Assembly: GCA_025936995.1 (NCBI GenBank)
Contig: JAICSH010000006.1
Coordinates: 6,575-70,574 of the forward strand
Length of the DNA: 64,000 nucleotides
Direction: 5' to 3'
From: Thermoleophilia bacterium
GTDB lineage: Bacteria; Actinomycetota; Thermoleophilia; Gaiellales; Gaiellaceae
The first letter of the stretch is position 1; each line of letters opens with the position of its first letter. Positions 10,767 through 56,959 of the stretch are shown piece by piece. The position numbers were made by a program, and so were the translations under genes. A model generated the notes under the pieces. The model was not told where the DNA came from. It did no database searches and saw nothing but the letters and a program-made list of their open reading frames with translations.

Positions 10767-12278
10767 GTGATCCTGCGCAACGGGACGATCCGCACGCTCG
10801 ATCCATCACTGCCGACGGTCTCGTCCCTCTGGATCGCGGGCGACCGGATCGCGGGCGGGGTCGGCGTGCACGAGGCGGCGCTGCCGAGCCCGGAGACGGT
10901 GGATCTCGGCGGCCGCTGCGTCCTGCCCGGGTTCACCGACTCGCACGTCCACTTCCCCACCTGGGCCCTCGCGCGGCACGACGTGCGCCTCGACGGCTGC
11001 GCGTCGCTCGCGGATGCGCTCGACCGGGTGCGCGCGGCGCCGCGAACCGGAACCTGGCTGCGCGGCCAGGGCTGGCGGGACGCCGACTGGCCCGACGGCC
11101 CGCCGACCCGGCAGGCGCTCGACGAGATCGAGCCCGAACGGCCCGCGATGCTGATCTCGAAGGACTACCACGCGCTCTGGCTCAACTCCGTCGCGCTCGC
11201 GCTCGCGGGCGGCTACCTCGAGGTCGAGGGAGGCGTGGTGGTCCGCGACGAGCACGGCGACGCGACCGGCGTCCTCTACGAGCGTGCGGCGTGGGAGTTC
11301 AAGGAACGCCACGCGCGCGTGCCGGACGACGAGTACGTCGAGGCGATGCGTGACGGCGTCAAGGTCGCGGCCTCGCGCGGCGTCACGGCGCTGCACGACA
11401 AGGACGGCTGGCTCGGCGCGATCGGGCTCTGGCAGCGGCTCGAGCAGCAGGGCAGCCTGCCGCTCCGCGTCTGGCAGTCGACGCCCGCCGACCGGCTCGG
11501 CGACCTCCGCAACCTCGGCCTGCGTAGCGGCGTCGGCTCTCCCCTCCTCCGACTCGGCTACCTCAAGGCGTTCATGGACGGAACGCTGGGCTCGCAGACG
11601 GCCTGGATGGCGGACCGCAGTGGAGTCACGATCACGAGGAGCGAGGATCTCGAGGAGATCGTCCGCGATGGCGCCGAGGCCGGCTGGCCCGTCGGCGTGC
11701 ACGCGATCGGCGACGCGGCGAACGCAGCGGCGCTCGACGCATTCGAGCGTTCTCGGGAAGCGTGGCAGCCGCGCGGCCTCCGCCCGCGGATCGAGCACGC
11801 GCAGTGCCTCGCCCCGGGCGACGTCTCACGCTTCGCCGAGCTAGGCGTCGTGGCCTCCGTCCAGTTCTCCCACGCGCCTTCCGACGAGGAGCTCGCGAAG
11901 CGCTTCTGGTCCGACCGCCTCGACCGCACGTACTCGTTCGGCGCACTCCTCGAGTCGGGCGCGCTCCTCGCGAACGGCTCCGACGCGCCGGTGGAGGAGC
12001 TCGAGCCGTGGGCCGGCGTCGTCGCCGCCGTCCTCGACCACTGGCGCGATGACCAGCGGCTGACGCTCGAGCAGGCGTTGCATGCGGTCTGCGTCGCGCC
12101 GGCGTGGCTGTCCCACGACGAGCGCGTCCGAGGGACGCTCGTCCCCGGCCGCTACGCCGACCTCGTGGTGCTCGACCGCGACCCGTTCGCCTGCGAGCCG
12201 GAGGAGCTGCGCGAGGTCCAGATCGTCGCGACGATGCTCGCCGGCCGCTGGACGCACAACCCGCCGCCCTGGGATTGA
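10767..12278 (+). CDS. Amidohydrolase family protein (YtcJ-like metal-dependent hydrolase)
   Basis: Motifs DSHVHF, HAIGD and GSDAPV. The start is either GTG 10767 or ATG 10722, and the latter would share its CATG with the divergent ACAD start. Confidence 0.85.
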   Translation: MILRNGTIRTLDPSLPTVSSLWIAGDRIAGGVGVHEAALPSPETVDLGGRCVLPGFTDSHVHFPTWALARHDVRLDGCASLADALDRVRAAPRTGTWLRGQGWRDADWPDGPPTRQALDEIEPERPAMLISKDYHALWLNSVALALAGGYLEVEGGVVVRDEHGDATGVLYERAAWEFKERHARVPDDEYVEAMRDGVKVAASRGVTALHDKDGWLGAIGLWQRLEQQGSLPLRVWQSTPADRLGDLRNLGLRSGVGSPLLRLGYLKAFMDGTLGSQTAWMADRSGVTITRSEDLEEIVRDGAEAGWPVGVHAIGDAANAAALDAFERSREAWQPRGLRPRIEHAQCLAPGDVSRFAELGVVASVQFSHAPSDEELAKRFWSDRLDRTYSFGALLESGALLANGSDAPVEELEPWAGVVAAVLDHWRDDQRLTLEQALHAVCVAPAWLSHDERVRGTLVPGRYADLVVLDRDPFACEPEELREVQIVATMLAGRWTHNPPPWD

Positions 12279-12305
12279 TCGGAAAAACATTTGATCAGAC
12301 CGCCT

Positions 12306-16438: not shown

Positions 16439-17152
16439 ATGCTGCGGTCCGTGCGGTTCGCGGAAGTGGCGTTACAGGGGCCGGCGGGGCTGAGGGAGTT
16501 CTACGGCAGTGTGCTCGGCTTCGCGCTCGACGGCGAGACGATCGGCGTCGGCGAGACGAGGCTCCGGTTCGAGCCGGCGGAGAGCGGCGCCTTCTACCAC
16601 TTCGCACTGCTCGTCCCGGGCGACCGCTTCGACGCGTCGCTCGCGTGGGTGCGGGAGCGCGTGGAGCTGCTCGGCGACGTCTTCGACTTCGAGGCCTGGG
16701 ACGCTCACGCCGTCTACTTCCACGATCCCGCCGGAAACATCGTGGAGCTCGTCGCGCACCGCGGCCTCGACGAGGGCGGACGCTCGGGTGAGTTCGCGCC
16801 GGAGGAGCTCGCCGGCTTCTCGGAGCTCGGGATCGTCGGCGACCCGCCGGACCTGGCGCGCCGGCTCGCGACCGTCGGCGTGGCGCTCTGGGACGGCACG
16901 ATCGACGAGCCCGGCGGGCTCGCCTTCGCCGGCGAGCAGGGCCGGACGCTGATCCTCGCCCCACCGGGCCGCGGGTGGCTCCCAACGAGCCGCCCCGCCG
17001 AGCCGCATCCGCTGACAGCGACGCTCGCCGGCGGGCGTGACCCCACTGACCCCACTGACCTTGTAACACTTTGTTACTTGCTCGATCCGACCGCCAAAGA
17101 TGGAGAAAAGGGCGCCGGCACCGCACCTAGTAACACTTTGTTACTAGGGTAG
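16439..17152 (+). CDS. VOC/glyoxalase-fold protein whose 3' end runs through an AT-rich repeat element
   Basis: The VOC-like core is FYHFALLVP..VYFHDPAGNIVELV. The last roughly 35 codons (..DPTDPTDLVTLCYLLD..SNTLLLG) are encoded by the repeat, so the native C-terminus is doubtful. Confidence 0.7.
   Translation: MLRSVRFAEVALQGPAGLREFYGSVLGFALDGETIGVGETRLRFEPAESGAFYHFALLVPGDRFDASLAWVRERVELLGDVFDFEAWDAHAVYFHDPAGNIVELVAHRGLDEGGRSGEFAPEELAGFSELGIVGDPPDLARRLATVGVALWDGTIDEPGGLAFAGEQGRTLILAPPGRGWLPTSRPAEPHPLTATLAGGRDPTDPTDLVTLCYLLDPTAKDGEKGAGTAPSNTLLLG
17055..17078. repeat. AT-rich palindrome box A1 with its conserved left flank
   Basis: CTGACCTTGTAACACTTTGTTACT is identical over 24/24 nt to 30035-30058. 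The core inverted repeat is GTAACA-CTT-TGTTAC. It is preceded by a perfect tandem 9-mer, CCCACTGAC x2 (17042-17059). Confidence 0.8.
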
Positions 17153-17168
17153 ACGGGTCCGGTCGGGG
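17124..17168. repeat. AT-rich palindrome box A2 plus a conserved GC-rich right flank
   Basis: CACCTAGTAACACTTTGTTACTAGG (17124-17148) matches 30117-30141 at 24/25 nt. AGACGGGTCCGGTCGGGG (17151-17168) matches 30144-30161 at 15/18 nt. Confidence 0.8.
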
Positions 17169-17169
17169 C

Positions 17170-18255
17170 TCAGGCGACGTCCCGGAGGGAGTCCGTCAGG
17201 GCCAGCGCGCGGAGCTTCTTCAGGCTCTGGTTCTCGATCTGGCGGATCCGCTCGCGCGTCACGTTGAACGCGCGGCCGACCTCGTCGAGTGTGCGCGGCT
17301 GCTCGCCGTCGAGGCCGTAGCGCAGCTCGAGCACCCGCCGCTCGCGGTGCGAGAGCGTGTCGAGGATGTCGCGGAGCAGCTCCGTCCGCAGCGTCGTGTC
17401 GGCCGCTTCGTCGGGGAGCGGGGCGTTTTGGTCGGTGAGGAAGTGCCCGAACTCCGACTCCTCCTCGTCTCCGACCGGCTTCTCGAGCGAGATCGGCGTC
17501 TGAGACGTGCGGAGGATCTGCTCGACCTCGTCGAGCGGAAGGTCGACGTCGCTCGCGATCTCGACGGGCGAGGGCTCGCGGCAGAGCTCGCCGCGCAGCT
17601 TCCGCTCGGACCGCACGATCTTGTTGAGCTTCTCGACGACGTGGACGGGCATGCGGATCGTCCGTCCCTTGTCTGCGAGCGCCCGCGCGACCGCCTGGCG
17701 GATCCACCACGTCGCGTACGTCGAGAACTTGTAGCCCTTGCGCCAGTCGAACTTCTCGGCGGCGCGGACGAGGCCGATCGTCCCCTCCTGGATCAGATCG
17801 AGGAACGGGAGCCCCTGGTTGCGGTAGCGCTTGGCGATCGAGACGACGAGCCGGAGGTTCGCCTCCACCATCTCCTGCTTCGCGCGATGGTCGCCGCGCT
17901 CGATCCGCTTCGCGAGCTCGACCTCCTCCGCGGCGGTCAGCAGCTCGACCTTGCCGATGTCCTTGAGGAAGAGCTGGAGCGCGTCGGTCGAGACCTCGCG
18001 GGCGGTCTCGTCGAGGCGCGCCTCCTCCTTCACGTTTGGGGTGGCTGTACCGTCGACGACCTCGACCTGAAGCTCCTCGAGCGCGCGGTAGACGTCCTCG
18101 ATCTGAGCCGGCTCGAGGTCGAGCTCGTCGAGCGCGAGCGCGAGCTCCTCGGCGTTGATCCTTCCGGCGGCCTGCGCGGCTTCGAGCAGGCTTCGTGCCT
18201 CTTCCGTCTCGAGAACGTCGTTGGGTGACGCTCCCACAGTGGCTGTAGCGGCCAT
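17170..18255 (-). CDS. RNA polymerase sigma-70 factor, group 1/2 (RpoD/HrdB-like)
   Basis: Regions 1.2-4 are present, including [10 protein letters not shown] and a region 4 HTH. The start is set at ATG 18255, just downstream of GGGAGGGGGAG. Confidence 0.9.
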
Positions 18256-18332
18256 CTCCCCCTCCCTGGCGATGCCGGAGGATGCCATGCGGGCCACGGC
18301 GGGCGCCATAGGCCGTTCGGCTCATATTTCCT

Positions 18333-19334
18333 TTACTTGGTCCCATGCTTCCCAATGCGGGAAAGCAGGGTTCGTACGGCTTTTGCGTAGGACGAACGAG
18401 GAGCCTCGGCGGCCGCGAGCCGGAGCTGCTTGAGGCCCTTCGCGGGCTGCGCGGTCGCGATGAGGAGCAAACCGAGCTCGAAGCGGACGACCGGCGCGTG
18501 CGGGAACACCGCCGTCAGCGGCCCTAGCCGTGCAAAGGCGCGCGCCGGCGCGCGCTTCGTGAAGAGGCCGACGGCGGCCGCCGTGCGCGCGTAGGGATCC
18601 TGCGGCGCCAGCCGGGCCGCCGCGGCGAACTGACGCTCGGCGGAGACGCGATGCCAGAGCTGCCAGAGGAAGTAGCCGTACCGCAGCTTGGCCTCCGCGT
18701 CCGGCTTGCGCGCGTCGGCCGCGAGGACACGCAGCTGCGCCGCGGCGCTCGCTGCCCCCGGCAGGGACAGCGGCAGGACGAGGTCCGGCAGATCCGGCTT
18801 GTCCGCGGAGTAGAGCTGGTTCTCGGCCTCGACCGACTCCGGCGAGTCCGGGAACCGCGTGTCGACCCGATTCCAGGCCGCTGCGGCGTCGGCGATCCGG
18901 CCCGACCAGAGGTACGCCCAGCCGAGGTGGTACTCGGCCACCGCGCTGTCCGGGTTCTCCGCCGCGAGACGCTTCAGCGTGCCGAGGCCGTCGTCGCCCG
19001 GCCAGCCGGCGAAGGCGAGGCCGATCTGCGCCTGCAGCGAGTGGTGGCGCTCGAAGATGGCGCGCGCCGCGGCGACGTGTTTCGCGTTCAGGAGCTCTGC
19101 GGCGCGAGCGAGGTCCCGGGCCTCGGGGTCGTCGCGGACGCCGAAGTCGAAGAACACCGGGGGGATCCCGGAGCGCGGCTTCGTCACGGAACCCGGCACG
19201 GTCGTCGTCTCGCCGCGCGTCTGGAGGACGGTCACGCCGACGACGGCTCCGGCGGCGATCAGAGCTGCGACCGCGACGACGAGAACGATCCGGCGGCTCC
19301 GAGCCGCCGCGAGCGGGCGTGCTGCTGTGGCCAC
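18333..19334 (-). CDS. Membrane-anchored TPR-like repeat protein
   Basis: One N-terminal TM segment (IVLVVAVAALIAAGAVVGVTVL) followed by helical repeat-like sequence. The start is set at GTG 19334, because the rest of tracked ORF 18333..19967 is antisense to the E1 gene. Confidence 0.65.
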   Translation of the reverse strand: MATAARPLAAARSRRIVLVVAVAALIAAGAVVGVTVLQTRGETTTVPGSVTKPRSGIPPVFFDFGVRDDPEARDLARAAELLNAKHVAAARAIFERHHSLQAQIGLAFAGWPGDDGLGTLKRLAAENPDSAVAEYHLGWAYLWSGRIADAAAAWNRVDTRFPDSPESVEAENQLYSADKPDLPDLVLPLSLPGAASAAAQLRVLAADARKPDAEAKLRYGYFLWQLWHRVSAERQFAAAARLAPQDPYARTAAAVGLFTKRAPARAFARLGPLTAVFPHAPVVRFELGLLLIATAQPAKGLKQLRLAAAEAPRSSYAKAVRTLLSRIGKHGTK

Positions 19335-21749: not shown

Positions 21750-22114
21750 TGCCGCCCGCGGTGCGGGAGGCGCTGGCCGAGCACGCGCGCGAAGAGCTGC
21801 CGAACGAGAGCTGCGGCCTGCTCGTCGTCCGGGAAGGTGTCGCCGAGCGCTACGAGCCGGGCCGCAATGCCGCCGACTCGCCGTACCGCTTCGACCTCGA
21901 CGTCGATCCCAAGCTCTGGTTCCTCGAGGACGAGGGCTACGAGCTCGCTGTCGTCCACTCCCACGTCTCCGCGCCGCCCAGGCCGTCTCGTACCGACGTC
22001 GAGAACGTCGGGCTCTGGCAGGGCCGCCCGTATCTCATCTACTCGGTCGCGCGGGACGAGCTCGCCGGCTGGACGATCGCGGACGGCTCGATCGAGCCAC
22101 TCGAGCTCCGCTGA
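21743..22114 (+). CDS. mec: JAMM/MPN+ metalloprotease (Mec-like)
   Basis: The JAMM motif is HSHVSAPPRPSRTD (HxHx7Sx2D), with an upstream Glu (NESCG). The start (GTG 21743 or 21749) overlaps the cysM stop. Confidence 0.85.
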   Translation: MVVPPAVREALAEHAREELPNESCGLLVVREGVAERYEPGRNAADSPYRFDLDVDPKLWFLEDEGYELAVVHSHVSAPPRPSRTDVENVGLWQGRPYLIYSVARDELAGWTIADGSIEPLELR

Positions 22115-22139
22115 AGCGGCGGCCTGTCATCCTTGCGCG

Positions 22140-22469
22140 ATGAGCGTGATCCGGATCGAGAACCTCCCCGACAGCGGAAACTCGTACCGCTTCGACGGCG
22201 CCGCGCACGACGCTCCCGTCTCGCTCTTCCTGCTCCACACGCGACCCGGCGAAGGCCCGGGCCTGCACCACCACCCGTACACGGAGACGTTCGTCATCCA
22301 GGAAGGGCAGGCGACGTTCACCGTCGGCGACGACACGATCGAGGCGCGTGCGGGAGACATCGTCGTTGCGCCCGCCGACACGCCGCACGCGTTCGTCAAC
22401 TCCGGCCCGGGCGTGCTGCGATCGGTCAACATCCACCCCGTCGCGGAGATGGAAACCGTCTGGCTCTGA
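22140..22469 (+). CDS. Cupin-domain protein
   Basis: Cupin motifs GLHHHPYTETFVIQEG and GDIVVAPADTPHAFVN. Confidence 0.8.
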   Translation: MSVIRIENLPDSGNSYRFDGAAHDAPVSLFLLHTRPGEGPGLHHHPYTETFVIQEGQATFTVGDDTIEARAGDIVVAPADTPHAFVNSGPGVLRSVNIHPVAEMETVWL

Positions 22470-22484
22470 GTGCGCGCGAACCCG

Positions 22485-22526
22485 ATTTAGTCTGATAACG
22501 TACTATTTAGTCCGGTATAAGACTAA
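22485..22526 (+). promoter_or_regulatory. AT-rich repeat/operator-like region upstream of the SRPBCC-MarR operon
   Basis: ATTTAGTC is repeated at 22485 and 22505 (20-nt phasing). The inverted repeat TTAGTC-N8-GACTAA spans 22507-22526 and abuts the SD AAGGAGG. Confidence 0.4.
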
Positions 22527-22536
22527 GGAGGTTCAG

Positions 22537-22947
22537 ATGATCAGCCGCACCGTCACCGCCGTCCTCGACGCGCCGAGCACCGAGGTCTTCGCCTTCCTCT
22601 CGCGCGTGGAGAACCTCCCCGTGTGGGCGACCGACTTCGCGCGGGAGCTGAAGTACGAGAACGGCGAGCCCATGGTGGTGAACGGACTCGGCGAGTTCTA
22701 CTTCCGGATCGACGCGAACGGCGACACCGGCGTGATCGACATGTTCGCCGGGCCTGACGAGACGCAGATGGCGATCTTCCCCACCCGCGTCGTCCGGCTC
22801 GCGCCGGACCGGTGCGCGTACACGTTCACGATGTTCAAGGCCCCGGAGACGGCCGACGAGCTGTTCGAAGCGCAGCACCGGTCGCTCGAGCGCGAGTTCG
22901 AGAACATCCGAGCTCGCTTCTCACGCGAACGGGCGGATGGCAGCTGA
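22537..22947 (+). CDS. SRPBCC-superfamily (polyketide cyclase/dehydrase-like) protein
   Basis: The size and pattern fit the family (TVTAVLDAPSTEVFAFLSRVENLPVW). A perfect SD, AAGGAGG, lies 5 nt upstream. Confidence 0.8.
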   Translation: MISRTVTAVLDAPSTEVFAFLSRVENLPVWATDFARELKYENGEPMVVNGLGEFYFRIDANGDTGVIDMFAGPDETQMAIFPTRVVRLAPDRCAYTFTMFKAPETADELFEAQHRSLEREFENIRARFSRERADGS

Positions 22948-23365
22948 CCGCAACGACACCGGCTACCTGCTCGCGCTCGCGAGCAGGCGCTGGAACGAGA
23001 TCCTCGAGCAGCGCTTCGCAGACGCCGCCTTCCCGGAGGTGCGTGCCTCGTACGGCGCGCTGCTCGTGCCGCTGTTCGAGGAAGACGGGCTGCGGCTGGG
23101 CGAGCTCGCCCGCCGGGCGCGCCTGAGCAAGCAGACCGTGACGACGATGGCGCGCCTCCTGGAGCGCACCGGGCTCGTCACACGCCATCCGGACGCGGAC
23201 GATGCGCGCGCCACGCGGCTCTTCCTCTCCGGGCGCGCGAGACGCTTCCAGCCCGTCGCGGAGTCGGTGCTCGCCGAGCTCGACCAGGAGGTCGCAAAGA
23301 CCCTCGGCGGCGAGCAGGCGGCCGGACTCAAGCTGTCCCTCGCCGCCCTCGTCGAGCTCAGCTGA
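22937..23365 (+). CDS. MarR-family transcriptional regulator
   Basis: Winged-helix core LRLGELARRARLSKQTVTTMARLLERTGLVTRHPDADDARA. It overlaps the upstream gene by 11 nt. Confidence 0.85.
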   Translation: MAADRNDTGYLLALASRRWNEILEQRFADAAFPEVRASYGALLVPLFEEDGLRLGELARRARLSKQTVTTMARLLERTGLVTRHPDADDARATRLFLSGRARRFQPVAESVLAELDQEVAKTLGGEQAAGLKLSLAALVELS

Positions 23366-23372
23366 AAAAGCC

Positions 23373-23402
23373 ACGTCCGGAACCTGGTTCCCGGACGTGT
23401 CC
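23373..23402. repeat. Degenerate copy of the GC-rich REP-like palindrome
   Basis: ACGTCCGGAACC-T-GGTTCCCGGACGTGTCC has one extra C and a truncated left arm. It again lies between convergent genes. Confidence 0.5.
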
Positions 23403-23413
23403 CCGCGAGACGG

Positions 23414-24739
23414 TTACTCCAGCTCGTCCTCGTCGGCATAGTCGGCGACCTCGTCGCGCCGCGGCTCCGGCAGCTCCTCGAACGTGACCGCGATCCGCTC
23501 GATGCGGTTGCCCTCCACCTCGAGCACGTCGAAGCGCATCCCGTCGTACGAGACGTCGTCCCCCGGCTCCGGCGCACGCCCGAGCTGGCCGAAGACGAAG
23601 CCCGCCACCGTGTGGAAGTCCTCTTCCGGGAGCTCTGTGCCGAAGCGCTCGTTGAAGTCGTCGATCGAGAACATCCCGTCGACGCGGTAGGAGTCCTCGC
23701 CGATCTGCTCCACCGGCTCCTCGGGCACGTCGAACTCGTCCTCGATCTCGCCGACGATCTCCTCGAGCAGGTCCTCGAGCGTCGCGATCCCGACCATCGC
23801 CCCGTACTCGTCGATCACCACCGCGAAATGCGTGTTGGCGCGCCGGAACTCCTGCAGGAGCGAGGCGAGGTCCTTCGTCTCCGGGACGACGTAGGCCGGC
23901 CGCAGCAGCGACTCGAGGTCGACCTGCGCCAGCCCGCGGTCGTGGATCGCGCTGAAGAGGTCGCGGACGTGCAGCACGCCGGCGATGTCGTCGAGCGACT
24001 CGCGGTAGACGGGGTAGCGCGTGTAGGGCGAGTCGAGGACGACGGCGAGCGCCTCCTCCGGCGCCAGGTCGATCGAGACTGCGGCGACGTCCGGCTTGGC
24101 GACCATCACGTCGGCGACGTCCTTGTCGCCGAAGACGAAGACCTTGTCGATCATCTCCCGCTCGTCCTCCTCGATCTGCCCCTGCTGCGTGGAGCGGGAG
24201 ACAAGCATGCGCAACTCCGCCTCCGAGTGCACCTCGCGCTCGGCGCCCGGCGGCTCGAGGCCGAGGGCGCGAAGGATCACGTCGGTCGACGCGCGCAGGA
24301 GCCAGATCGCCGGACGGAACAGCGCGAAGAACCCGCGGACGGGCACGGACACCCAGAGCGCCGTCCCTTCCGCGTGCCCCAGCGCAGCGCCTTTCGGCAC
24401 TAGCTCGCCGAAGACCACATGGAAGAAGCTCAGGACCGCGTAGGCGAGGATGATCGCCACGATCGCCGCCATCCAGTGCTTGAACTCGCGCGACAGGGTC
24501 TCCTCGCCGAGGGCGCCGATGGCCAGGGAGGTGAGCGTGACGCCGAGCTGCATGGCCGCGATGAAGCGCGGCGGGTCGCCGGTGATCCGCAGGACGTCGC
24601 GGGCGCGCCGGTTCCCCTGGTGCTGGAGCTCGATGATGCGCGTCCGCCGCGCCGTGACGAGGCCGTACTCCGCGGCCACGAAGAACGCGTTGAGCAGGAT
24701 CAGGAACGCGACCCCGATCAGCTCGTAGAGGAGTGTCAC
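23414..24739 (-). CDS. CNNM/hemolysin-family transporter protein (DUF21-CBS pair-CorC_HlyC)
   Basis: N-terminal TM domain, a CBS pair region and a C-terminal CorC/HlyC-like domain (VDGMFSIDDFNERFG...GFVFGQLGR). Confidence 0.9.
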   Translation of the reverse strand: MTLLYELIGVAFLILLNAFFVAAEYGLVTARRTRIIELQHQGNRRARDVLRITGDPPRFIAAMQLGVTLTSLAIGALGEETLSREFKHWMAAIVAIILAYAVLSFFHVVFGELVPKGAALGHAEGTALWVSVPVRGFFALFRPAIWLLRASTDVILRALGLEPPGAEREVHSEAELRMLVSRSTQQGQIEEDEREMIDKVFVFGDKDVADVMVAKPDVAAVSIDLAPEEALAVVLDSPYTRYPVYRESLDDIAGVLHVRDLFSAIHDRGLAQVDLESLLRPAYVVPETKDLASLLQEFRRANTHFAVVIDEYGAMVGIATLEDLLEEIVGEIEDEFDVPEEPVEQIGEDSYRVDGMFSIDDFNERFGTELPEEDFHTVAGFVFGQLGRAPEPGDDVSYDGMRFDVLEVEGNRIERIAVTFEELPEPRRDEVADYADEDELE

Positions 24740-29021: not shown

Positions 29022-29327
29022 TTATGCGATCGGCTCGTTCTGGACGTTGTTCTCGTCCGCGTACTTCTGGGTGAGCTCGTTGACGACCTCCGCCCCCTTG
29101 TCGTACGCGTAGTTGATCTCGACGAACGCGTTCCACTTGTCCGGCAGCGCGTCCTCGGGGAAGATCGCCTCCACCGGGCATTCCGGCTCGCACGCCCCGC
29201 AGTCGATGCACTCCTCCGGGTCGATGACGAGGATCCGGTCGAACTCGTGGATGCAGTCGACCGGGCAGACGTCCACGCAGGAGCGGTCTTTGATGTCGAT
29301 GCAGGGCTCGGCGATGATGTACGTCAC
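29022..29327 (-). CDS. fdxA: 7Fe ferredoxin (3Fe-4S plus 4Fe-4S, FdxA type)
   Basis: TYIIAEPCIDIKDRSCVDVCPVDCIH....CIDCGACEPECPVEAI. The start is set at GTG 29327. Confidence 0.9.
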   Translation of the reverse strand: MTYIIAEPCIDIKDRSCVDVCPVDCIHEFDRILVIDPEECIDCGACEPECPVEAIFPEDALPDKWNAFVEINYAYDKGAEVVNELTQKYADENNVQNEPIA

Positions 29328-29373
29328 GCGGCCTACTGTAGATAGCGATTGCGGGCGACTGCGGGCCGAACCG

Positions 29374-29691: not shown

Positions 29692-29710
29692 GTGGGAAGG
29701 TTAGAACGCC

Positions 29711-30046
29711 ATGGAGGCGTCATACAAGCGCGGGCTCGAGGCGATTCGCGAACGCCGCTACTTCGAGGCGCACGAGGAGCTCGAGATCGCGTGGCGCGCG
29801 GCGCCTGCCGAGGAGCGGGATTACTTCCAGGGACTCGTCCATGTGGCGGTTGCCTGGTACCAGGCCGGACGCGGACGCCCCGTCGCGACGGCGCGGCAGC
29901 TCGAGAAGGCGTCGCGGCGCCTCGCCGCGTTTGCGCCGGCGCACCGCGGAGTCGACGTCGAAGGCCTGCTCACGCAGGTCGACGCGGCGCGCAAGCGAGT
30001 CGCCTCCGGCTCTCTCGACCTCGCTCCACCAAAGCTGACCTTGTAA
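29711..30046 (+). CDS. DUF309-domain protein
   Basis: RYFEAHEELEIAWR...QGLVHVAVAWY is typical of DUF309. Its TAA stop (30044-30046) lies inside AT-rich box B1. Confidence 0.75.
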   Translation: MEASYKRGLEAIRERRYFEAHEELEIAWRAAPAEERDYFQGLVHVAVAWYQAGRGRPVATARQLEKASRRLAAFAPAHRGVDVEGLLTQVDAARKRVASGSLDLAPPKLTL

Positions 30047-30058
30047 CACTTTGTTACT
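30035..30058. repeat. AT-rich palindrome box B1 with its conserved left flank
   Basis: CTGACCTTGTAACACTTTGTTACT is identical to 17055-17078. Confidence 0.8.
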
Positions 30059-30116
30059 AGCGTGGACGGGTGCCGTTTCGGAGGTGTCCACCGGCATGGC
30101 TGCACGGGTTCCCGAG

Positions 30117-30161
30117 CACCTAGTGACACTTTGTTACTAGGAAAGACGTGTCCGGTTGGAG
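30117..30161. repeat. AT-rich palindrome box B2 plus a conserved GC-rich right flank
   Basis: CACCTAGTGACACTTTGTTACTAGG, then AGACGTGTCCGGTTGGAG. The flank contains GACGTGTCCGGTT, which is identical to 6845-6857 in the REP-like palindrome. Confidence 0.8.
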
Positions 30162-30208
30162 TGGATGCCTGGGCCCCGGTGGCGCGCCCTGGGGGCTCCG
30201 GCCTCGGG

Positions 30209-30919
30209 CTAGGGCTTCGTCAGGCCGAGGTCGATGAGGGCTCGGTTCAGCCCTACCTGCAGCCACCACTCGCGGTGGAAGAACAGGAGGAGCCCCAGCG
30301 CGACGAGGACGAGGCCGCTGGCGATCTGGATCACCTTGTAGCGGTCGCGCAGCCAGCGGAACGTTCCCATCGCCCGAGCGAACGCGAGACCCGCGACGAC
30401 GAACGCCGCGCCGAGGCCGAGTGCGTAGGCCGCGAGGAGGACGGTCCCCTTGAGCACCGTCCCGCTCGTGCTCGCGAGGACGAGAACCGCACCGAGAACG
30501 CTCCCGATGCACGGTGCGGCGCACACGGCGAACGCACCCCCGAGCAGCGCGCCGGAACCTCGCCGGCGTGCCCCCGCGAGCAGTCCGGGCGCCAGCACGC
30601 GCTCGGGCACGGGCAGCAGGCCGACGAAGGCGAGGCCGAGCACCACGAGGACGAAGCCCGCGACCTCCGTCCGGACGGTCCCGGAGAGGACGCTGCCGAT
30701 CGCGGCTGCGCCCGCGCCGAGGACCACGAAGACGACGGTGAAGCCCGCGATGAACGGCAGGCTCGAGACGACGACTCGCCGCGTCGTCCCGCGCTGGCCG
30801 AGCCGGCCGGCCTCGACGCTCGAGACGGCGGCCAGGTAGCCGGGAACGAGCGGAAGCACGCACGGCAGCACAACCGACACGAACCCGGCGGCGAACGAGA
30901 TGCCGAGCCTTCCTCCCAT
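30209..30919 (-). CDS. ccdA: Cytochrome c biogenesis / thiol-reductant transporter CcdA (DsbD-family membrane protein)
   Basis: Six TM segments with motifs VVLPCVLPLVPGYL and AVCAAPCIG. Confidence 0.9.
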   Translation of the reverse strand: MGGRLGISFAAGFVSVVLPCVLPLVPGYLAAVSSVEAGRLGQRGTTRRVVVSSLPFIAGFTVVFVVLGAGAAAIGSVLSGTVRTEVAGFVLVVLGLAFVGLLPVPERVLAPGLLAGARRRGSGALLGGAFAVCAAPCIGSVLGAVLVLASTSGTVLKGTVLLAAYALGLGAAFVVAGLAFARAMGTFRWLRDRYKVIQIASGLVLVALGLLLFFHREWWLQVGLNRALIDLGLTKP

Positions 30920-44752: not shown

Positions 44753-47700
44753 TCAGGCCGCCCGGCGCGCGTCCAAGATAGCATCGACCAGCTCGACCGC
44801 CTGCGCGATTTCCTCCTGGCCGCGCATGCTTACTTCCTGCTTAGAAGAGACGTAGACGGCCGTTTTCGCGCGGTCGCGGAGCTCTCGCAGCTCCCCCGAG
44901 CCGAGGACGAGCCGGCCGACCGTGGCGCGGCCTCCCAGGAAGACGAGGTAGTCCGCGCCGAGCAGGGCGACCTTGATCTTCGCCTCCTGGATGCGGAAGA
45001 GGTTGACGACGGGGTCGGGCAGCGGCCCGTAGCGGTCCTCGAGCATCGCCTGCAGCTCCCGCAGCTCGTCCTCCGTCTCCGCCAGCGCGAGCCGGCGGTG
45101 GACGTCGATCCGCAGCGCCTCGGAGTCGACGTACGCGGCGGGGACGTACGCGTCGACCCGCGCGTCCACCCGTACCGGCCGGACCGCGATGCGCTTCTGG
45201 CCCTGCAGCTCCGCGACCGCCTCGTTCAGGAGCTCGACGTAGAGCTCGAACCCGACGGCTGCGACATGGCCGGACTGCTCGGCGCCGAGCAGCTCTCCCG
45301 CTCCGCGGATCTCGAGGTCGCGCATCGCGATCGCGAAGCCGGCACCGAGCTCCGTGTGGTCGGCGAGCGTCGAGAGACGGGCCCGCGCCTCGGGGGTCAG
45401 CTCGCGCGCGTCGGGATAGAAGAGGTACGCGAACGAGGTGGCGTCGGAGCGGCCGACCCGGCCGCGGATCTGGTAGAGCTGGGCGAGGCCGAGCATGTCG
45501 GCACGCTCGACGATGAGCGTGTTCGCCTGCGGGATGTCGATCCCCGACTCGATGATCGTCGTCGAGACGAGGACGTCGGCGTCGCCGCGCAGGAAGGCGT
45601 GCATCCGCTCCTCGAGCTCCTTCTCGCGCATCTGCCCGTGCGCGACGAGGAAGCGCAGCCCCGGGCACAGCTGCTGCAGCTGCTCCGCCCGCTCCTCGAT
45701 CGTCTCGACTCTGTTGTGCAGGAAGAACGCCTGACCCTCCCTCTCGGCCTCGCGCTCGAGCGCGAGCTTCACGAGCTCCTCGTCGTACTCGCCGACGGTG
45801 GTGCGGATCGGCCGGCGCCCCTCCGGCGGCGTCTCGATGATCGAGATGTCTCGCATGCCCGCCAGCGAGAGGTGCAGCGTGCGCGGGATCGGCGTCGCGC
45901 TCAGCGTGAGCACGTCGACCTCGAGCCGCAGCGACTTGAGCAGCTCCTTTTGCGCGACGCCGAAGCGCTGCTCCTCGTCGAGGATCACGAGCCCGAGCTC
46001 CTTCGGGATCACGTCGCGGCTGAGGACGCGGTGCGTGCCGATGAGCACGTCGACCTTGCCGGCGCTGAAGTCGGCGAGGATCCGCTTCGTCTCCTTCGGC
46101 GCGACGAAGCGGGAGACCATCTCGACCTGCACGGGGAAGTCGCGGAACCGGTCGCGGAAGGTGTTGTAGTGCTGCTCGGCGAGGATGGTCGTAGGCGCGA
46201 GAAGCAGCACCTGCCGGCCGTTCACGGCGACGGCGAACGCGGCTCGCACCGCGACCTCGGTCTTGCCGAAGCCGACGTCGCCGCAGACCAGCCGGTCCAT
46301 CGGACGCGGCGTCTCGAGGTCCTCCTTCACCGCCTCGATCGCCGCCTCCTGGTCGGGCGTCTCCCGGTACGGGAAGCTCGCCTCGAGCCGCGGCAGCCAC
46401 TCGTGCGAGAGGTCGAACGCGACTCCCTCGCGCGTCTGCCGCTGCGCGTAGAGCTGGATCAGGTCGCCCGCGAGCTCGCGGACGGACTCGCGCGCGCGGG
46501 ACTTGAGCGTCTGCCACGCCTTGCCGCCGAGCTTGGAGAGCGCGGGCGCCGACGCGTCGGCGCCGACGTAGCGTGAGACCTTGCCGAGCTGCTCGTGCGG
46601 GACGTAGAGCCGGTCCTCCCCGCGGAACGCGAGTTGGAGGTAGTCGCGCGTGACGCCGGCGACCGTCTTCGTCTCGAAGCCGAGGAGCCGCCCGACGCCG
46701 TGATCCTCGTGGACGACGTAATCGCCGGTGCGGAGGTCGGCGAACGACTGCAGCGCCCGGCCGCCCAGGCGGCGCTCGCGGGGCGCGCGGCGGCGGAAGA
46801 CCTGGTGATCGGGGAGGAGGACGAGGCCGAGGTCGCGCCAGACGAAGCCGCGGCGCGCGGGCGCGACCGCGAACAGGAGCTCGGCCTCCTCCGGCAGCTC
46901 CTCGCCCGGCTCGAGCAGCCGCGCCGCGACCCGGCGGAGGAGGTTCTGCGTGCGCAGCGCTTCGCCGCGATGCGGGAAGGCGACCACGACGCGCTGGCCG
47001 GAGCGGATGAGCGCTGCGAGCTCGTTCTCGGCCTCGGCGAGACCGCGCGCGGCGATCGCGGGCCGCTGCGCCTCGAACGCGAGCGGCTGAGCCTGCGGGA
47101 ACGGGTCGAGCTCCGTCGAGCCGGCGAGCGAAGGCGGGTCGCCGACGCCGTCCTCCTCCCACACGCGCCGAACGTCGTCCGGCTGGAAGACGAGGTCGGG
47201 CGGCCGTTCGAGCGCCGGCACGAGATCGTCGGGAACCGCCGGGGCCGCGGGCTCCTCCCCCTCCTCCGCAAGTAACACGTTGTCACTAAGTTCGACAGTG
47301 TCCAATCGGCGCTCGGCCGCCGGGTACAGGGTCGCTTCGGACACCGGATGGAGCGCCCGCTGCGTGAACGGCGAGAAGGCGCGCACCGACTCGATCTCGT
47401 CGCCGAAGAACTCGATCCGCAGCGGCTCGCGGCCCGTCGTCGGGAAGGCGTCGACGATGCCGCCGCGCACGGCGAACTGGCCGCGGTCGTCCACCCGCTC
47501 CACGCGCTCGTAGCCGGCGAGGGCGAGCCTCTCGCTCAGCTCCTCGACGCCGACCTCCAACCCGGTCCCCAGCTCGATCGGCTCCGGCCGCTGCCCGGCC
47601 GGCGGCAGCCCCTCCGCCAGCGCCCGCGCGGAGGCACAGACGAGCCCGCCGCGCTCGAGCACGTGCAGCGCGCGCGCCCGCTCGCCGACGAGGTGCGGCG

Positions 47701-47983
47701 GCGGCGCGAGCCCCGAGTCCCACGTCACGCCGCGACTCGGCAGCAGGCCGACCTCGTCGTCACCGAGGAACCAGGCCGCGCCCTCGGCGGCGTCGCGCGC
47801 ATCCGCGTCCTCCGGGAGAAGGACGACCAACCCGCGCTCGAGACGCTCGTGCAGCGAGGCCAGGAGCAGCGGAAGCGCCGGCTCCGAGACGCGGGCGCGA
47901 GTCGGCAGGCCATCCGCGAGCTCGACGAGACGCTCGTGCTCGACGAGCTCGGTGACGAAAGCGTGAAGTACCGGACGGTCCAT
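44753..47983 (-). CDS. mfd: Transcription-repair coupling factor Mfd
   Basis: The DEAD/DEAH-box helicase motifs are GDVGFGKTEV and DEEQRFG, with TRG and CarD-like regions. The start is set at ATG 47983. Confidence 0.95.
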   Translation of the reverse strand: MDRPVLHAFVTELVEHERLVELADGLPTRARVSEPALPLLLASLHERLERGLVVLLPEDADARDAAEGAAWFLGDDEVGLLPSRGVTWDSGLAPPPHLVGERARALHVLERGGLVCASARALAEGLPPAGQRPEPIELGTGLEVGVEELSERLALAGYERVERVDDRGQFAVRGGIVDAFPTTGREPLRIEFFGDEIESVRAFSPFTQRALHPVSEATLYPAAERRLDTVELSDNVLLAEEGEEPAAPAVPDDLVPALERPPDLVFQPDDVRRVWEEDGVGDPPSLAGSTELDPFPQAQPLAFEAQRPAIAARGLAEAENELAALIRSGQRVVVAFPHRGEALRTQNLLRRVAARLLEPGEELPEEAELLFAVAPARRGFVWRDLGLVLLPDHQVFRRRAPRERRLGGRALQSFADLRTGDYVVHEDHGVGRLLGFETKTVAGVTRDYLQLAFRGEDRLYVPHEQLGKVSRYVGADASAPALSKLGGKAWQTLKSRARESVRELAGDLIQLYAQRQTREGVAFDLSHEWLPRLEASFPYRETPDQEAAIEAVKEDLETPRPMDRLVCGDVGFGKTEVAVRAAFAVAVNGRQVLLLAPTTILAEQHYNTFRDRFRDFPVQVEMVSRFVAPKETKRILADFSAGKVDVLIGTHRVLSRDVIPKELGLVILDEEQRFGVAQKELLKSLRLEVDVLTLSATPIPRTLHLSLAGMRDISIIETPPEGRRPIRTTVGEYDEELVKLALEREAEREGQAFFLHNRVETIEERAEQLQQLCPGLRFLVAHGQMREKELEERMHAFLRGDADVLVSTTIIESGIDIPQANTLIVERADMLGLAQLYQIRGRVGRSDATSFAYLFYPDARELTPEARARLSTLADHTELGAGFAIAMRDLEIRGAGELLGAEQSGHVAAVGFELYVELLNEAVAELQGQKRIAVRPVRVDARVDAYVPAAYVDSEALRIDVHRRLALAETEDELRELQAMLEDRYGPLPDPVVNLFRIQEAKIKVALLGADYLVFLGGRATVGRLVLGSGELRELRDRAKTAVYVSSKQEVSMRGQEEIAQAVELVDAILDARRAA

Positions 47984-47991
47984 GACGAAGG

Positions 47992-48011
47992 GCGGAACCG
48001 ACCGGTTCCGC
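47992..48011. promoter_or_regulatory. 20-bp palindrome in the mfd / MFS divergent region
   Basis: GCGGAACCG-AC-CGGTTCCGC has perfect 9-nt arms. It shares the GGAACC..GGTTCC core with the REP-like palindromes. Confidence 0.4.
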
Positions 48012-48043
48012 GGAGTCCGATGGTAACGCGGCGCTGCGGGGCG

Positions 48044-48049
48044 TACGCT
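48044..48049 (+). promoter_or_regulatory. -10-like hexamer TACGCT, 7 nt upstream of GTG 48057 (putative leaderless promoter)
   Basis: Same hexamer and spacing as at 10754. Confidence 0.35.
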
Positions 48050-48056
48050 CCGGGTC

Positions 48057-51446: not shown

Positions 51447-51472
51447 GCCATCCCTTCGTTCGTCTTCCGATT

Positions 51473-51497
51473 AATCATTCTGTGACTGAACGATTCA
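51473..51497. promoter_or_regulatory. Inverted repeats in the MMPL / MarR divergent region (likely MarR operator)
   Basis: AATCATTC-N7-GAACGATT (one mismatch), overlapping the palindrome TGAA-CGA-TTCA. Confidence 0.4.
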
Positions 51498-56885: not shown

Positions 56886-56959
56886 TGGCTGGGGCGCCAG
56901 GATTCGAACCTGGGATCACGGGACCAAAACCCGTTGCCTTACCACTTGGCTACGCCCCA
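56886..56959 (-). tRNA. tRNA-Gln (anticodon UUG), CCA encoded
   Basis: The reverse complement folds as a cloverleaf: acceptor TGGGGCG/CGCCCCA, anticodon stem ACGGG/CCCGT with loop TTTTGGT (anticodon TTG), T-arm CCAGG-TTCGAAT-CCTGG, discriminator G plus CCA. Confidence 0.9.

What the first reader, a model, noticed from the sequence alone, without database searches (positions are those of the whole stretch)
30035..30161. Locus B of the same element: conserved blocks with a variable spacer argue for functional sites rather than a recent MITE copy
Thirteen kb downstream the same architecture recurs between another convergent gene pair (DUF309 and ccdA). Block 1 is CTGACCTTGTAACACTTTGTTACT and is 24/24 identical to locus A. 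Block 2 is CACCTAGTGACACTTTGTTACTAGG (24/25). Block 3 is AGACGTGTCCGGTTGGAG (15/18) and contains a half-site of the GC-rich REP-like palindrome. The spacer between boxes is unrelated in sequence and differs in length (45 nt in A, 58 nt in B; box centres 67 versus 80 nt apart). Conserved modules with a free spacer look like protein-binding sites or RNA hairpins under selection, not a recently transposed unit. Box B1 supplies the TAA stop codon of the DUF309 gene (30044-30046). The core fits the generic pattern TnAC-N5-GTnA (BldD-box-like) and GTnAC-N5-GTnAC. The position at the 3' ends of genes is not typical of an operator.
Basis: partly seen in the sequence, partly recalled or inferred. Interest (0 to 1): 0.7.

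Follow-up and report, generated by a model that had tools for sequence, protein, structure and literature searches.

The report
Paired, helically phased palindromes at gene ends
Locus B belongs to a previously undescribed family of paired 23-bp DNA palindromes that sit between the ends of converging genes in Gaiellaceae soil bacteria, are spaced a whole number of DNA helical turns apart, and are most likely clamped by a still unknown DNA-binding protein.

Summary
The window is 70.7% GC. It holds two copies of one architecture, A at 17.06 kb and B at 30.04 kb. Each has two AT-rich dyads, (S)CWW-GTAACA-NNN-TGTTAC-WWG(S), 67 and 80 bp apart, wedged between convergent genes. The first box of B supplies the DUF309 stop codon.

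The boxes belong to a large family. I found 7 pairs in one Gaiellaceae MAG and at least 105 pairs in high-GC soil contigs.
- The arms are almost invariant: 0.97 identity among locus A orthologues, against 0.58 for the spacer and 0.71 for synonymous sites.
- Box-to-box distances cluster at about 55, 66, 78 and 88.5 bp, a period of 11–12 bp with P < 1/2000. Orthologues differ by about 11 bp.
- The centre triplet is the same in the boxes sampled from a genome (CTT here, GWC in orthologues).
- 56% of pairs lie between convergent genes, against 16% in the background.
- Orthologous sites are either filled or cleanly empty.

There is no support for an RNA structure, a promoter, a terminator, a target-site duplication, shared internal sequence or a neighbouring transposase.

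The best reading is two same-face binding sites for a symmetric DNA-binding protein. It resembles REP/BIME elements and is not a recent MITE. The protein and the function remain unknown.

The parts
30035..30042 (.). Left outer flank of locus B (CTGACCTT). It is identical to the flank of box A1 and lies in the last codons of the DUF309 gene.
30039..30061 (.). Dyad site B1: CCTT-GTAACA-CTT-TGTTAC-TAGC, core 30043-30057. The TAA at 30044-30046 is the DUF309 stop codon.
30058..30122 (.). Spacer of locus B, 65 nt between the cores and 80 bp from start to start (the 7-turn class). It is weakly homologous to the spacers of the orthologues L118, L084 and L040. It has no exceptional fold of its own (z -0.43).
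30119..30141 (.). Dyad site B2: CCTA-GTGACA-CTT-TGTTAC-TAGG, core 30123-30137. It carries one tolerated A>G change in the arm.
30142..30161 (.). Right outer arm ('block 3', AAAGACGTGTCCGGTTGGAG). The same WWGG-AAAGAC-N2-GNCCGG motif follows or precedes boxes in a subfamily of elements, on either side and facing outward.
29711..30046 (+). DUF309 gene that ends inside box B1.
30209..30919 (-). ccdA-like (DsbD_TM) gene, convergent. The element lies next to its 3' end in five genomes.
17030..17062 (.). Left outer arm of locus A. It includes a 9-bp tandem duplication, GACCCCACT. It is an imperfect inverted partner of the right arm.
17059..17081 (.). Dyad site A1, core 17063-17077.
17078..17129 (.). 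Spacer of locus A, 67 bp from start to start (the 6-turn class). There are no indels among five orthologues.
17126..17148 (.). Dyad site A2, core 17130-17144. The TAG at 17150-17152 ends the read-through ORF.
17145..17169 (.). Right outer arm of locus A (block 3). It abuts the sigma-70 stop codon (TCA at 17170-17172).
16439..17152 (+). Glyoxalase/VOC-like ORF whose native C-terminus was replaced. It is translated through both boxes.
17170..18309 (-). Principal-type sigma-70 gene, convergent on locus A.
47272..47286 (.). Solo box-like site GTAACACGTTGTCAC inside the mfd coding sequence. It has one arm mismatch and is either a chance match or a relic.

Best explanation
Locus B is one copy of a chromosomal cis-element made of two double-stranded DNA recognition sites.

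Each site is a 23-bp dyad, S-C-W-W-GTAACA-N-W-N-TGTTAC-W-W-G-S, read by a symmetric (homodimeric) sequence-specific DNA-binding protein. The two sites lie a whole number of helical turns apart (5, 6, 7 or 8 turns; 7 in locus B and 6 in locus A). The two bound dimers therefore face the same side of the helix and can contact each other as a dimer of dimers or a tetramer. This would loop or clamp the 40-75 bp of arbitrary DNA between them.

The element sits where two converging genes end, and it was gained or lost as a block of about 133-147 bp. Its most likely role is a gene-end nucleoprotein mark of the REP/BIME kind. Possible activities are a barrier to read-through transcription or to supercoil diffusion between convergent genes, or a docking site for a topoisomerase or another enzyme.

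What is shown:
- the dyad sequence constraint;
- the phased spacing;
- conservation of the arms well above neutral sites;
- the same centre in the boxes sampled from a genome;
- the gene-end location.

What is inferred:
- that a protein binds;
- that two dimers cooperate;
- what the complex does.
For: 1. Family and consensus.
- Seven pairs occur in Gaiellaceae MAG SMAG_U5299.
About 105 of them have GC 0.64-0.76.
- The flank profile is the same on the inner and outer sides of each box: T/A, A/T, G, S.

2. Double-stranded DNA dyad rather than a hairpin.
- The WW flank positions are constrained to A or T but are not complementary above chance (z -2.6 and -0.8).
- Positions 7 and 9 are complementary in about 85% of boxes (GWC 140, CWG 44 and AST 10 of 236). 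This gives a 7-1-7 palindrome whose inner pair could not form in a hairpin.

3. Phasing.
- In 109 non-identical pairs, the distance classes have means of 55.0, 66.2, 78.1 and 88.5 bp.
- The best period is 11.9 bp with R = 0.55. None of 2000 null sets reached this value.
- Orthologous elements differ by 11, 11, 11, 12, 13 and 21 bp.
- L058 and L112 have homologous spacers with a net 11-bp indel.
- From my own knowledge, in vivo looping by LacI and AraC shows the same 11.0-11.3 bp period over 55-95 bp.

4. Selection. Locus A orthologues were fetched through the neighbouring protein, so they were not selected on the boxes. Among them, identity is 0.97 for the arms, 0.58 for the spacer, 0.71 for sigma-70 third codon positions and 0.88 for all sigma-70 positions. 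In 13 of 14 filled homologues both boxes are intact.

5. The sampled boxes of one genome share the same centre.
- Window A and B are CTT, while their orthologues are GWC.
- Three SMAG_U5299 loci are CTT/AAG, while their orthologues are GWC.
- This implies a shared trans-acting reader or copier.

6. Location.
- 34 of 61 pairs are convergent, against 49 of 297 background gaps (odds ratio 6.4, P = 9e-10).
- 76% of facing gene ends lie within 30 nt of a box.
- 38% use a stop codon made by the box.

7. No tie to a particular gene. The 143 flanking proteins fall into 161 Pfam families, with none enriched beyond what the orthologous loci explain.
Against: - No binding protein has been identified and no binding data exist.
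- The metagenome scan required two exact-arm boxes 36-96 bp apart. The ratio of pairs to solo boxes, and distances outside that range, are therefore unknown. Only 2 true solo boxes were seen in 744 kb of flanking DNA.
- Minor distance classes at about 84 and 93 bp fall off the integral-turn series.
- A transcription factor rarely has its sites at gene 3' ends.
- A factor that does not touch the centre would not explain why the centre is the same in the boxes sampled from a genome. That feature points to copying or recombination as much as to binding.
- The window's CTT centre breaks the dyad.
- Clean filled-or-empty polymorphism is scattered over the gene tree. That pattern is what a mobile element would give.
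Confidence: 0.5

Rival explanations
1. The element is a non-autonomous mobile element of the REPIN or MITE type. The roughly 133-147-bp dyad-symmetric unit would be moved or copied in trans by a transposase, either a RAYT-like Y1 enzyme or a DDE enzyme, that recognises the boxes. Conservation of the boxes and the genome-specific variants would reflect co-evolution with that transposase and not a service to the host. This overlaps with the best explanation if the binder is a domesticated transposase.
For: - Orthologous sites are filled in some genomes and cleanly empty in others. In L166 and L171 the convergent genes overlap, while window, L165, L169, L172 and L173 carry the insert.
- Filled alleles are scattered over the gene tree.
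- The outer arms are imperfect inverted repeats.
- Tandem arrays exist, such as L162 with 4 boxes.
- Box variants are genome-specific, as reported for REP and RAYT systems.
- The layout of two conserved ends, a poorly conserved spacer and a fixed length is how REPINs are described (PMC3116915).
- The pairs are enriched between convergent genes.
Against: - Copies within one genome share no internal sequence.
- Orthologous copies are older than a 70-80% genome divergence.
- No target-site duplication appears at the junction between filled and empty sites.
- No transposase or recombinase is present in the 64-kb window or among 143 flanking genes.
- Spacers are barely more foldable than shuffled controls (mean z -0.26) and show no compensatory changes. 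REPINs differ on this point.
- The core stem has only 6 AT-rich pairs.
- No excision junctions over locus A were found in four soil DNA runs, although these are contig data and therefore weak.
- Copy number seems low, with 7 exact pairs in the MAG.
Confidence: 0.28
2. The element acts at the RNA level. The boxes would form 6-10-bp hairpins, or one long box1:box2 hairpin, in the 3' UTRs of both convergent transcripts. These would serve as a bidirectional terminator, an exonuclease block or an RNase III site.
For: - The location is at gene 3' ends.
- Each box folds as a hairpin of -12.8 to -13.2 kcal/mol.
- The whole B element can fold into a long hairpin on either strand (z -3.1 and -2.9).
- One weak terminator-like site lies in the A spacer on the sigma-70 strand.
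Against: - There is no Rfam match.
- The predicted folds of A and B differ.
- The covariation terms are positive and the paired columns are invariant.
- The flank positions are W, not complementary, and the 7/9 symmetry is useless in a hairpin.
- B has no GC-rich stem followed by a U tract.
- The exact sequence of the arms is conserved, not merely the pairing.
- A spacing period of 11-12 bp has no RNA rationale.
Confidence: 0.1
3. The boxes are core sites of a site-specific recombinase, with the arms as binding sites and CA-NNN-TG as the crossover region. Limited strand exchange between sites would homogenise the centre within a genome.
For: - The centre is the same in the sampled boxes of a genome but differs between closely related genomes, while the arms stay constant.
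- The 8-7-8 layout resembles lambda-type core sites (from my own knowledge).
- Whole-block gain and loss is seen.
Against: - No recombinase gene lies nearby.
- GAC and GTC differ only at the central base and flip freely between orthologues, so most centres are symmetric and give no polarity.
- Recombination between dispersed chromosomal sites would be harmful.
- There is no evidence of inversion or deletion between the two boxes.
Confidence: 0.07

Closest known systems
REP/BIME elements and REPINs of Proteobacteria (PMC3116915, PMC3337134; gyrase and IHF binding of BIMEs from my own knowledge)
   Same: - Short palindromic units occur in pairs, with a poorly conserved spacer of fixed, class-specific length.
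- They are extragenic, mostly at 3' ends and between convergent genes.
- Tandem clusters occur.
- Sequence variants are specific to a species or genome.
- Inheritance is vertical and long-lasting, with patchy presence.
   Different: - The units here are short, AT-rich, near-perfect 7-1-7 dyads in a 70% GC genome. They are not 25-40-nt GC-rich imperfect palindromes with a GTAG head.
- The spacers show no hairpin or compensatory signal.
- The spacing classes form an 11-bp series.
- Copy number appears to be tens, not hundreds.
- No RAYT has been found.
- The lineage is Thermoleophilia (Actinomycetota).
Auxiliary-operator DNA looping by tetrameric repressors (LacI, AraC, DeoR and GalR type; from my own knowledge)
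   Same: Two palindromic operators 55-95 bp apart work only when they lie on the same helical face. The in vivo period is about 11 bp, and the intervening sequence is irrelevant.
   Different: Those operators flank promoters of specific operons. Here the pairs sit at gene ends next to unrelated genes, and dozens of loci share one site.
BldD box of Streptomyces (TNAC-N5-GTNA; PMC4151990)
   Same: The half-site geometry is the same. The box core TAAC-N5-GTTA fits the 13-bp pattern, and the CWG variant also resembles the longer consensus as I recall it.
   Different: - Only 6 bases are specified, so the match is weak.
- The main variant is GWC.
- BldD sites lie in promoters of developmental genes.
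- No BldD homologue was seen in the DNA at hand.
MITEs such as Correia, ERIC/IRU and RUP (from my own knowledge)
   Same: They are dyad-symmetric units of about 130-150 bp, intergenic, with filled-or-empty polymorphism at orthologous sites. They can add C-terminal extensions or supply stop codons.
   Different: There is no target-site duplication and no shared internal sequence among copies in a genome. Only two 23-bp modules are conserved.
matS/MatP and other chromosome-organising palindromes (from my own knowledge)
   Same: They are low-copy palindromes with a 3-bp centre (GTGAC-RNY-GTCAC), bound by a dimer that bridges two sites as a tetramer.
   Different: matS sites are single, restricted to the Ter macrodomain of enterobacteria, and have a different sequence. 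No regional clustering was shown here.

Membership tests
REPIN / REP-BIME | Two highly conserved palindromic units separated by a less conserved spacer of conserved length | tested here: met
   Arm identity is 0.97 against 0.58 for the spacer. Distance classes lie at 55, 66, 78 and 88.5 bp.
REPIN / REP-BIME | The doublet plus spacer forms a long hairpin that is kept by compensatory changes | tested here: not met
   The covariation terms are +2.16 and +1.92. The mean z of spacer folds is -0.26 against 0.04 in controls. A and B fold differently.
REPIN / REP-BIME | A cognate RAYT (Y1 transposase) gene flanked by REPs in the same genome | not testable with these tools
   No complete genome was available. 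No transposase was found in the window or among 143 flanking genes.
REPIN / REP-BIME | Extragenic location, over-represented at 3' ends, and present in many copies per genome | tested here: inconclusive
   The location criterion is met. Copy number is only known as at least 7 exact pairs in one MAG and 2 pairs in 64 kb.
MITE | Target-site duplication flanking the insert | tested here: not met
   Comparing filled and empty sites at locus A shows no duplicated target.
MITE | Copies within a genome share internal sequence | tested here: not met
   The spacers of A and B, and of the 7 MAG loci, are unrelated.
MITE | Terminal inverted repeats and presence/absence polymorphism | tested here: inconclusive
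   The polymorphism is clear. The outer arms are only about 60% inverted-repeat-like.
BldD regulon operator | Matches TNAC-N5-GTNA | tested here: met
   The core TAAC-ACTTT-GTTA fits the consensus from PMC4151990. The pattern has only 6 specified bases.
BldD regulon operator | Lies in promoter regions of target genes, with BldD encoded in the genome | tested here: not met
   Only 2-3 of 61-69 pairs are in divergent gaps. Neighbouring genes fall into unrelated families. There was no BldD hit in the available DNA, which is a weak test.
Intrinsic (bidirectional) terminator | GC-rich stem followed by a U tract on the transcribed strand or strands | tested here: not met
   There are no terminator-like sites in B and one weak site in the A spacer. 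The box stems are AT-rich.
Curated RNA families (Rfam 15) | Scores above the gathering threshold of a covariance model | tested here: not met
   Only a tRNA was found in the window. Nothing credible was found at 29900-30300 with E up to 10.
Phage or prophage operator set | Boxes present in viral contigs next to repressor genes | tested here: not met
   GTAACAGTCTGTTAC gave 26 single hits in IMG/VR, all in contigs with GC of 0.58 or less and none paired.

The most novel reading that the evidence does not exclude
Gaiellaceae may encode a dedicated, sequence-specific DNA-looping protein that marks the junctions of converging genes. It would act as a protein-based bidirectional insulator of transcription or supercoiling. 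Its recognition code, at the bases next to the dyad centre, would be rewritten in concert at all sites when the protein changes.
Probability: 0.2. Interest if true: 0.8.

Novelty: new variant of a known kind. Interest (0 to 1): 0.6.

Why it matters
Gaiellaceae and other Thermoleophilia are abundant soil bacteria that are almost never cultured, and nothing is known about their genome punctuation. This family offers several things.
- It is a clean, testable cis-element with a 23-bp dyad, a spacing rule of 5-8 helical turns and a strict preference for gene ends.
- It is a natural case in which orthologous sites keep their arms while the central bases switch together in the sampled boxes of a genome. 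That is a rare handle on how a DNA-binding protein (or a copying enzyme) and its dispersed sites co-evolve.
- It matters for annotation. The boxes supply stop codons for about 38% of the genes that face them, and they add 30-40-residue tails to genes such as the VOC-like gene at locus A.

If the binder proves to be a looping protein at convergent junctions, it would be a new solution to read-through and supercoiling conflicts in compact, high-GC genomes.

Tried and rejected
- **Rfam**, with gathering thresholds and a permissive E-value: nothing found.
- **Conserved RNA fold**: RNAalifold on 5 orthologues of B and 5 of A gave no covariation. Spacer foldability across 119 elements was marginal.
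- **Promoter and terminator consensus scans**: nothing in B and one weak site in A.
- **RNA evidence**: soil metatranscriptome contigs cover only the conserved ferredoxin gene, not the element.
- **CRISPR-like mini-array**: rejected because 'spacer' lengths range from 30 to 80 nt in 11-bp classes, the tandem copies in L162 have similar spacers, and no cas genes are nearby.
- **Integron attC or Xer dif**: the sequence and geometry do not fit (reasoning from my own knowledge only).
- **Phage operator**: no high-GC viral contig carries the box.
- **Regulon of one gene family, or an adjacent cognate gene**: 143 flanking proteins fall into 161 Pfam families with no enrichment, and the 38 genes that start next to a box are unrelated.
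- **Target-site duplication or a 2-bp TSD around each box**: the flank dinucleotides show only a modest excess of direct repeats. This is better explained by a rule that one weak half-site is tolerated. No TSD appears at the junction of filled and empty sites.
- **Replication-strand polarity of the asymmetric CTT centre**: there is no consistent GC-skew relation.
- **Excision variants in four soil DNA runs**: none found, but these are contig data and therefore weak.
- **BldD homologue in the available DNA**: none found.
- **Literature searches** for the motif, or for Gaiellaceae repeats: nothing relevant.
- **Site at 47272**: it lies inside the mfd coding sequence and is probably a chance match or a relic.
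Full report
**1. The observation**

The window is 70.7% GC. At 30035-30161 the sequence reads CTGACCTT-GTAACACTTTGTTAC-TAGCG...(spacer)...GCACCTA-GTGACACTTTGTTAC-TAGGAAAGACGTGTCCGGTTGGAG.

- The 24-mer of block 1 recurs exactly at 17055, with none expected by chance.
- Block 2 differs from its partner in locus A at one base, and block 3 at three of 18.
- The 15-bp cores start at 17063 and 17130 (67 bp apart) and at 30043 and 30123 (80 bp apart).
- The two spacers do not align.
- DUF309 (29711-30046, +) ends with the TAA inside box 1. A DsbD_TM/ccdA gene (30209-30919, -) converges on the other side.
- Locus A lies between a glyoxalase/VOC-like ORF (16439-17152, +) and a principal-type sigma-70 gene (17170-18309, -).

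**2. A large family, not a two-copy curiosity**

A scan of one genome per species for two CTT-type cores 53-83 bp apart found seven loci, all in one Gaiellaceae MAG, SMAG_U5299. The other 37 hits were low-complexity repeats in AT-rich genomes.

About 105 of them have GC 0.64-0.76 and come from soil or rhizosphere samples. Homologues of the neighbouring protein are labelled Gaiellaceae. The window itself is found only in soil metagenomes.

The consensus of each site is S-C-W-W-GTAACA-NNN-TGTTAC-W-W-G-S, and the flank profile is the same on both sides of each box. The centres are GAC/GTC (140 of 236 boxes), CAG/CTG (44), CTT/AAG (18, from the window lineage and the MAG) and ACT/AGT (10). In about 85% of boxes positions 7 and 9 are complementary, so the box is a 7-1-7 palindrome. 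GAC and GTC differ only at the central base, and orthologues flip between them. The window's CTT is a hybrid of the half-sites GTAACAC and GTAACAA.

**3. DNA dyad or hairpin?**

- The WW flank positions are restricted to A or T but pair no more often than chance (z -2.6 and -0.8). The 7/9 symmetry would have to close a 1-nt loop, which a hairpin cannot do.
- Rfam finds nothing.
- The predicted folds of A and B differ, and the spacers alone are unremarkable (z -0.43 and +0.67).
- Alignments of five orthologues of B and five of A give positive covariation terms, which count against the structure. The paired box columns never vary.
- Across 119 elements the spacers are barely more foldable than shuffled versions (mean z -0.26, against 0.04 in control segments).
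- There is no promoter or terminator consensus in B.

The sequence constraint is therefore that of a double-stranded dyad read by a symmetric protein.

**4. Spacing is quantised**

Start-to-start distances of 109 non-identical pairs cluster at 55.0 ± 1.5 (n = 35), 66.2 ± 2.0 (30), 78.1 ± 1.5 (24) and 88.5 ± 1.2 (8). Small groups lie at 83.8 and 93.4, and there is almost nothing between the main classes. The best period is 11.9 bp (R = 0.55), a value reached by none of 2000 uniform or jittered null sets. The mean step between the four main classes is 11.2 bp.

This is not only descent within length families. Orthologous elements, identified by 70-90% identical flanks, differ by 11, 11, 11, 12, 13 and 21 bp. 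In the pair L058 and L112 the spacers are homologous, and three indels sum to exactly 11 bp. Locus A keeps 67 bp without a single indel in five genomes although the spacer is only 58% identical.

From my own knowledge, looping by LacI and AraC in vivo shows the same 11.0-11.3-bp period over the same range of 55-95 bp. I infer that the two sites must face the same side of the helix.

**5. Conservation and concerted change**

Locus B is present at the 3' end of ccdA in four other genomes:
- L118, 82% identical over 13.7 kb;
- L084, 80% identical;
- L040 of SMAG_U5299, 73-79% identical;
- L086, 68% identical.

In these the arms are intact, the spacing is 80, 79, 79 and 88 bp, and the spacer is about half identical. 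Those loci were found through exact arms, so they are biased.

Locus A orthologues were fetched through the neighbouring protein and are not biased in that way. Among them, arm identity is 0.97, the SCWW flanks 0.71, the spacer 0.58, the centre triplets 0.50, sigma-70 third codon positions 0.71 and all sigma-70 positions 0.88. In 13 of 14 filled homologues both boxes remain readable in the translated tail.

The centre behaves differently. Both boxes of A and both boxes of B are CTT in the window, while their orthologues carry GTC or GAC. Three loci of SMAG_U5299 are CTT/AAG, while their orthologues are GWC. L118, a GTC genome, is closer to the window at this locus than the CTT genome SMAG_U5299. 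The centre type has therefore switched more than once, and it switched at several loci together. That needs either a shared reader that touches these bases or a copying or conversion process limited to the box.

**6. Location**

These figures come from a crude GC3-based gene caller.
- 42 of 69 pairs, or with stricter of 61, lie between convergent genes. The background is 49 of 297 gaps in the same contigs (odds ratio 6.4, P = 9e-10).
- Divergent gaps hold only 2-3 pairs.
- Of 137 gene ends facing a box, 34 use the TAA of GTAACA, 18 use the TAG made by the flank, and 104 end within 30 nt.
- Convergent genes in these genomes normally abut or overlap, with a median gap of 6 bp. The element therefore makes up essentially the whole intergenic region.
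- The neighbouring genes are ordinary and unrelated: 161 Pfam families in 143 proteins, with no transposase, recombinase or regulator enriched.
- The window itself is core chromosome, carrying mfd, prs, metG, divIC, sigma-70 and moeZ-like genes, with no mobile-element genes.

**7. Gain and loss**

At locus A the contigs L166-168 and L171 lack the element altogether. In them the VOC-like gene and the sigma-70 gene overlap by 4 bp (CTAG) or 17 bp. In the filled alleles a block of about 133-147 bp replaces the native C-terminus of the VOC-like gene. The block consists of a 26-40-nt arm, box, 52-nt spacer, box and a 25-nt arm. The gene is then translated through both boxes to the TAG after box 2, giving the tail ...LVT[VL]CYL...SN.LLLG.

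The same WWGG-AAAGAC-NN-GNCCGG motif is found facing outward on either side of boxes in a subfamily. I could not define a target-site duplication.

Filled alleles (14 of 121) are scattered over a neighbour-joining tree of the protein. That tree is poorly resolved, so I cannot say whether this reflects repeated loss, repeated gain or allelic exchange. Contigs of four soil DNA runs show the filled allele of the window's species, strain variants and no excision junction. The variants include one G>T change inside box A2. These are contig data and cannot show rare events.

**8. Interpretation**

The most economical reading is a cis-element made of two same-face recognition sites for a symmetric DNA-binding protein. 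It is kept by selection at gene ends and moved or lost as a block on rare occasions.

In layout and location it is the counterpart of REP/BIME or REPIN elements, which have two conserved ends, a poorly conserved spacer of fixed length, tandem clusters and species-specific variants (PMC3116915). It fails the REPIN test of a hairpin kept by compensatory change, and no RAYT is known. It fails the MITE tests of a target-site duplication and shared internal sequence. The BldD-box likeness is only the generic TNAC-N5-GTNA pattern (PMC4151990), and the location is wrong for a BldD regulon.

What the complex does is inference. It could be a transcription roadblock, a supercoil barrier, a topoisomerase dock, or merely a binding site for a domesticated transposase.

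**9. Limits**

Solo boxes, longer distances and degenerate copies are therefore under-sampled. Only 2 true solos were seen in 744 kb.
- Gene calls are crude.
- No complete genome, no usable RNA data and no binding data were available.
- Viral contigs do not carry the boxes.
- The CTT strand shows no GC-skew polarity.
- The full-text library holds no description of this motif.

Noticed in passing
window 47272-47286: A solo box-like site, GTAACACGTTGTCAC, has one arm mismatch and is followed by a block-3-like GACAGTGTCC. It lies inside the mfd coding sequence (44753-48523, -), in the stretch encoding ...ELSDNVLLAEE.... It is either a chance match (about 0.12 expected) or a relic.
   Followed up: partly
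window 22114-23415: A cupin / SRPBCC-like / MarR cassette is absent from the 82%-identical syntenic contig L118 but present in the 96%-related contig L165. It includes an AT-rich repeat region at 22479-22535 with two TTTAGTC repeats, GACTAA and AAGGAGG. This looks like a small indel cassette with a probable MarR operator.
   Followed up: partly
window 17038-17055: A 9-bp tandem duplication, GACCCCACT, lies in the left arm of locus A. L165 and contigs of soil runs X3 and X9 have a single copy, so this is a strain-level polymorphism.
   Followed up: yes
window 16439-17152: The VOC-like gene has lost its native stop codon and is read through both boxes of locus A. This adds about 36 residues with low GC3. 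14 of 121 homologues carry the same LVT[VL]CYL...SN.LLLG tail.
   Followed up: yes
L040 4137-4300 against window 29700-30210: The DUF309 gene is missing in SMAG_U5299. There the element lies between ccdA and the ferredoxin-like operon, and box 2 sits directly upstream of AAGGAGG, possibly the ribosome-binding site of that operon. My gene caller places the next start 71 nt further on. Relative to the conserved outer flank, the CTT centre is inverted compared with the window.
   Followed up: partly
L162 1919-2134: Four boxes lie in tandem at 67, 68 and 66 bp, with similar spacers. This is a tandem array of the unit.
   Followed up: no
window 29084-29335: The ferredoxin (Fer4) gene reaches very high depth in soil metatranscriptome contigs. 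This is evidently cross-mapping from many related organisms. The rest of the region has almost no RNA coverage.
   Followed up: no
high-GC loci in general: Convergent genes in these genomes usually overlap by 4 bp (CTAG-type shared stop codons) or abut. The median gap is 6 bp, which leaves no room for conventional terminators.
   Followed up: partly
window 12272-12302, 18316-18343 and 51459-51491: These are further AT-rich islands in intergenic regions, for example GGATTGATCGGAAAAACATTTGATCAGACC and a stretch upstream of the divergent MarR and MMPL genes. They are probably ordinary promoter or operator regions.
   Followed up: no
window 56889-56959: A tRNA gene on the minus strand is the only Rfam hit in the window.
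   Followed up: no
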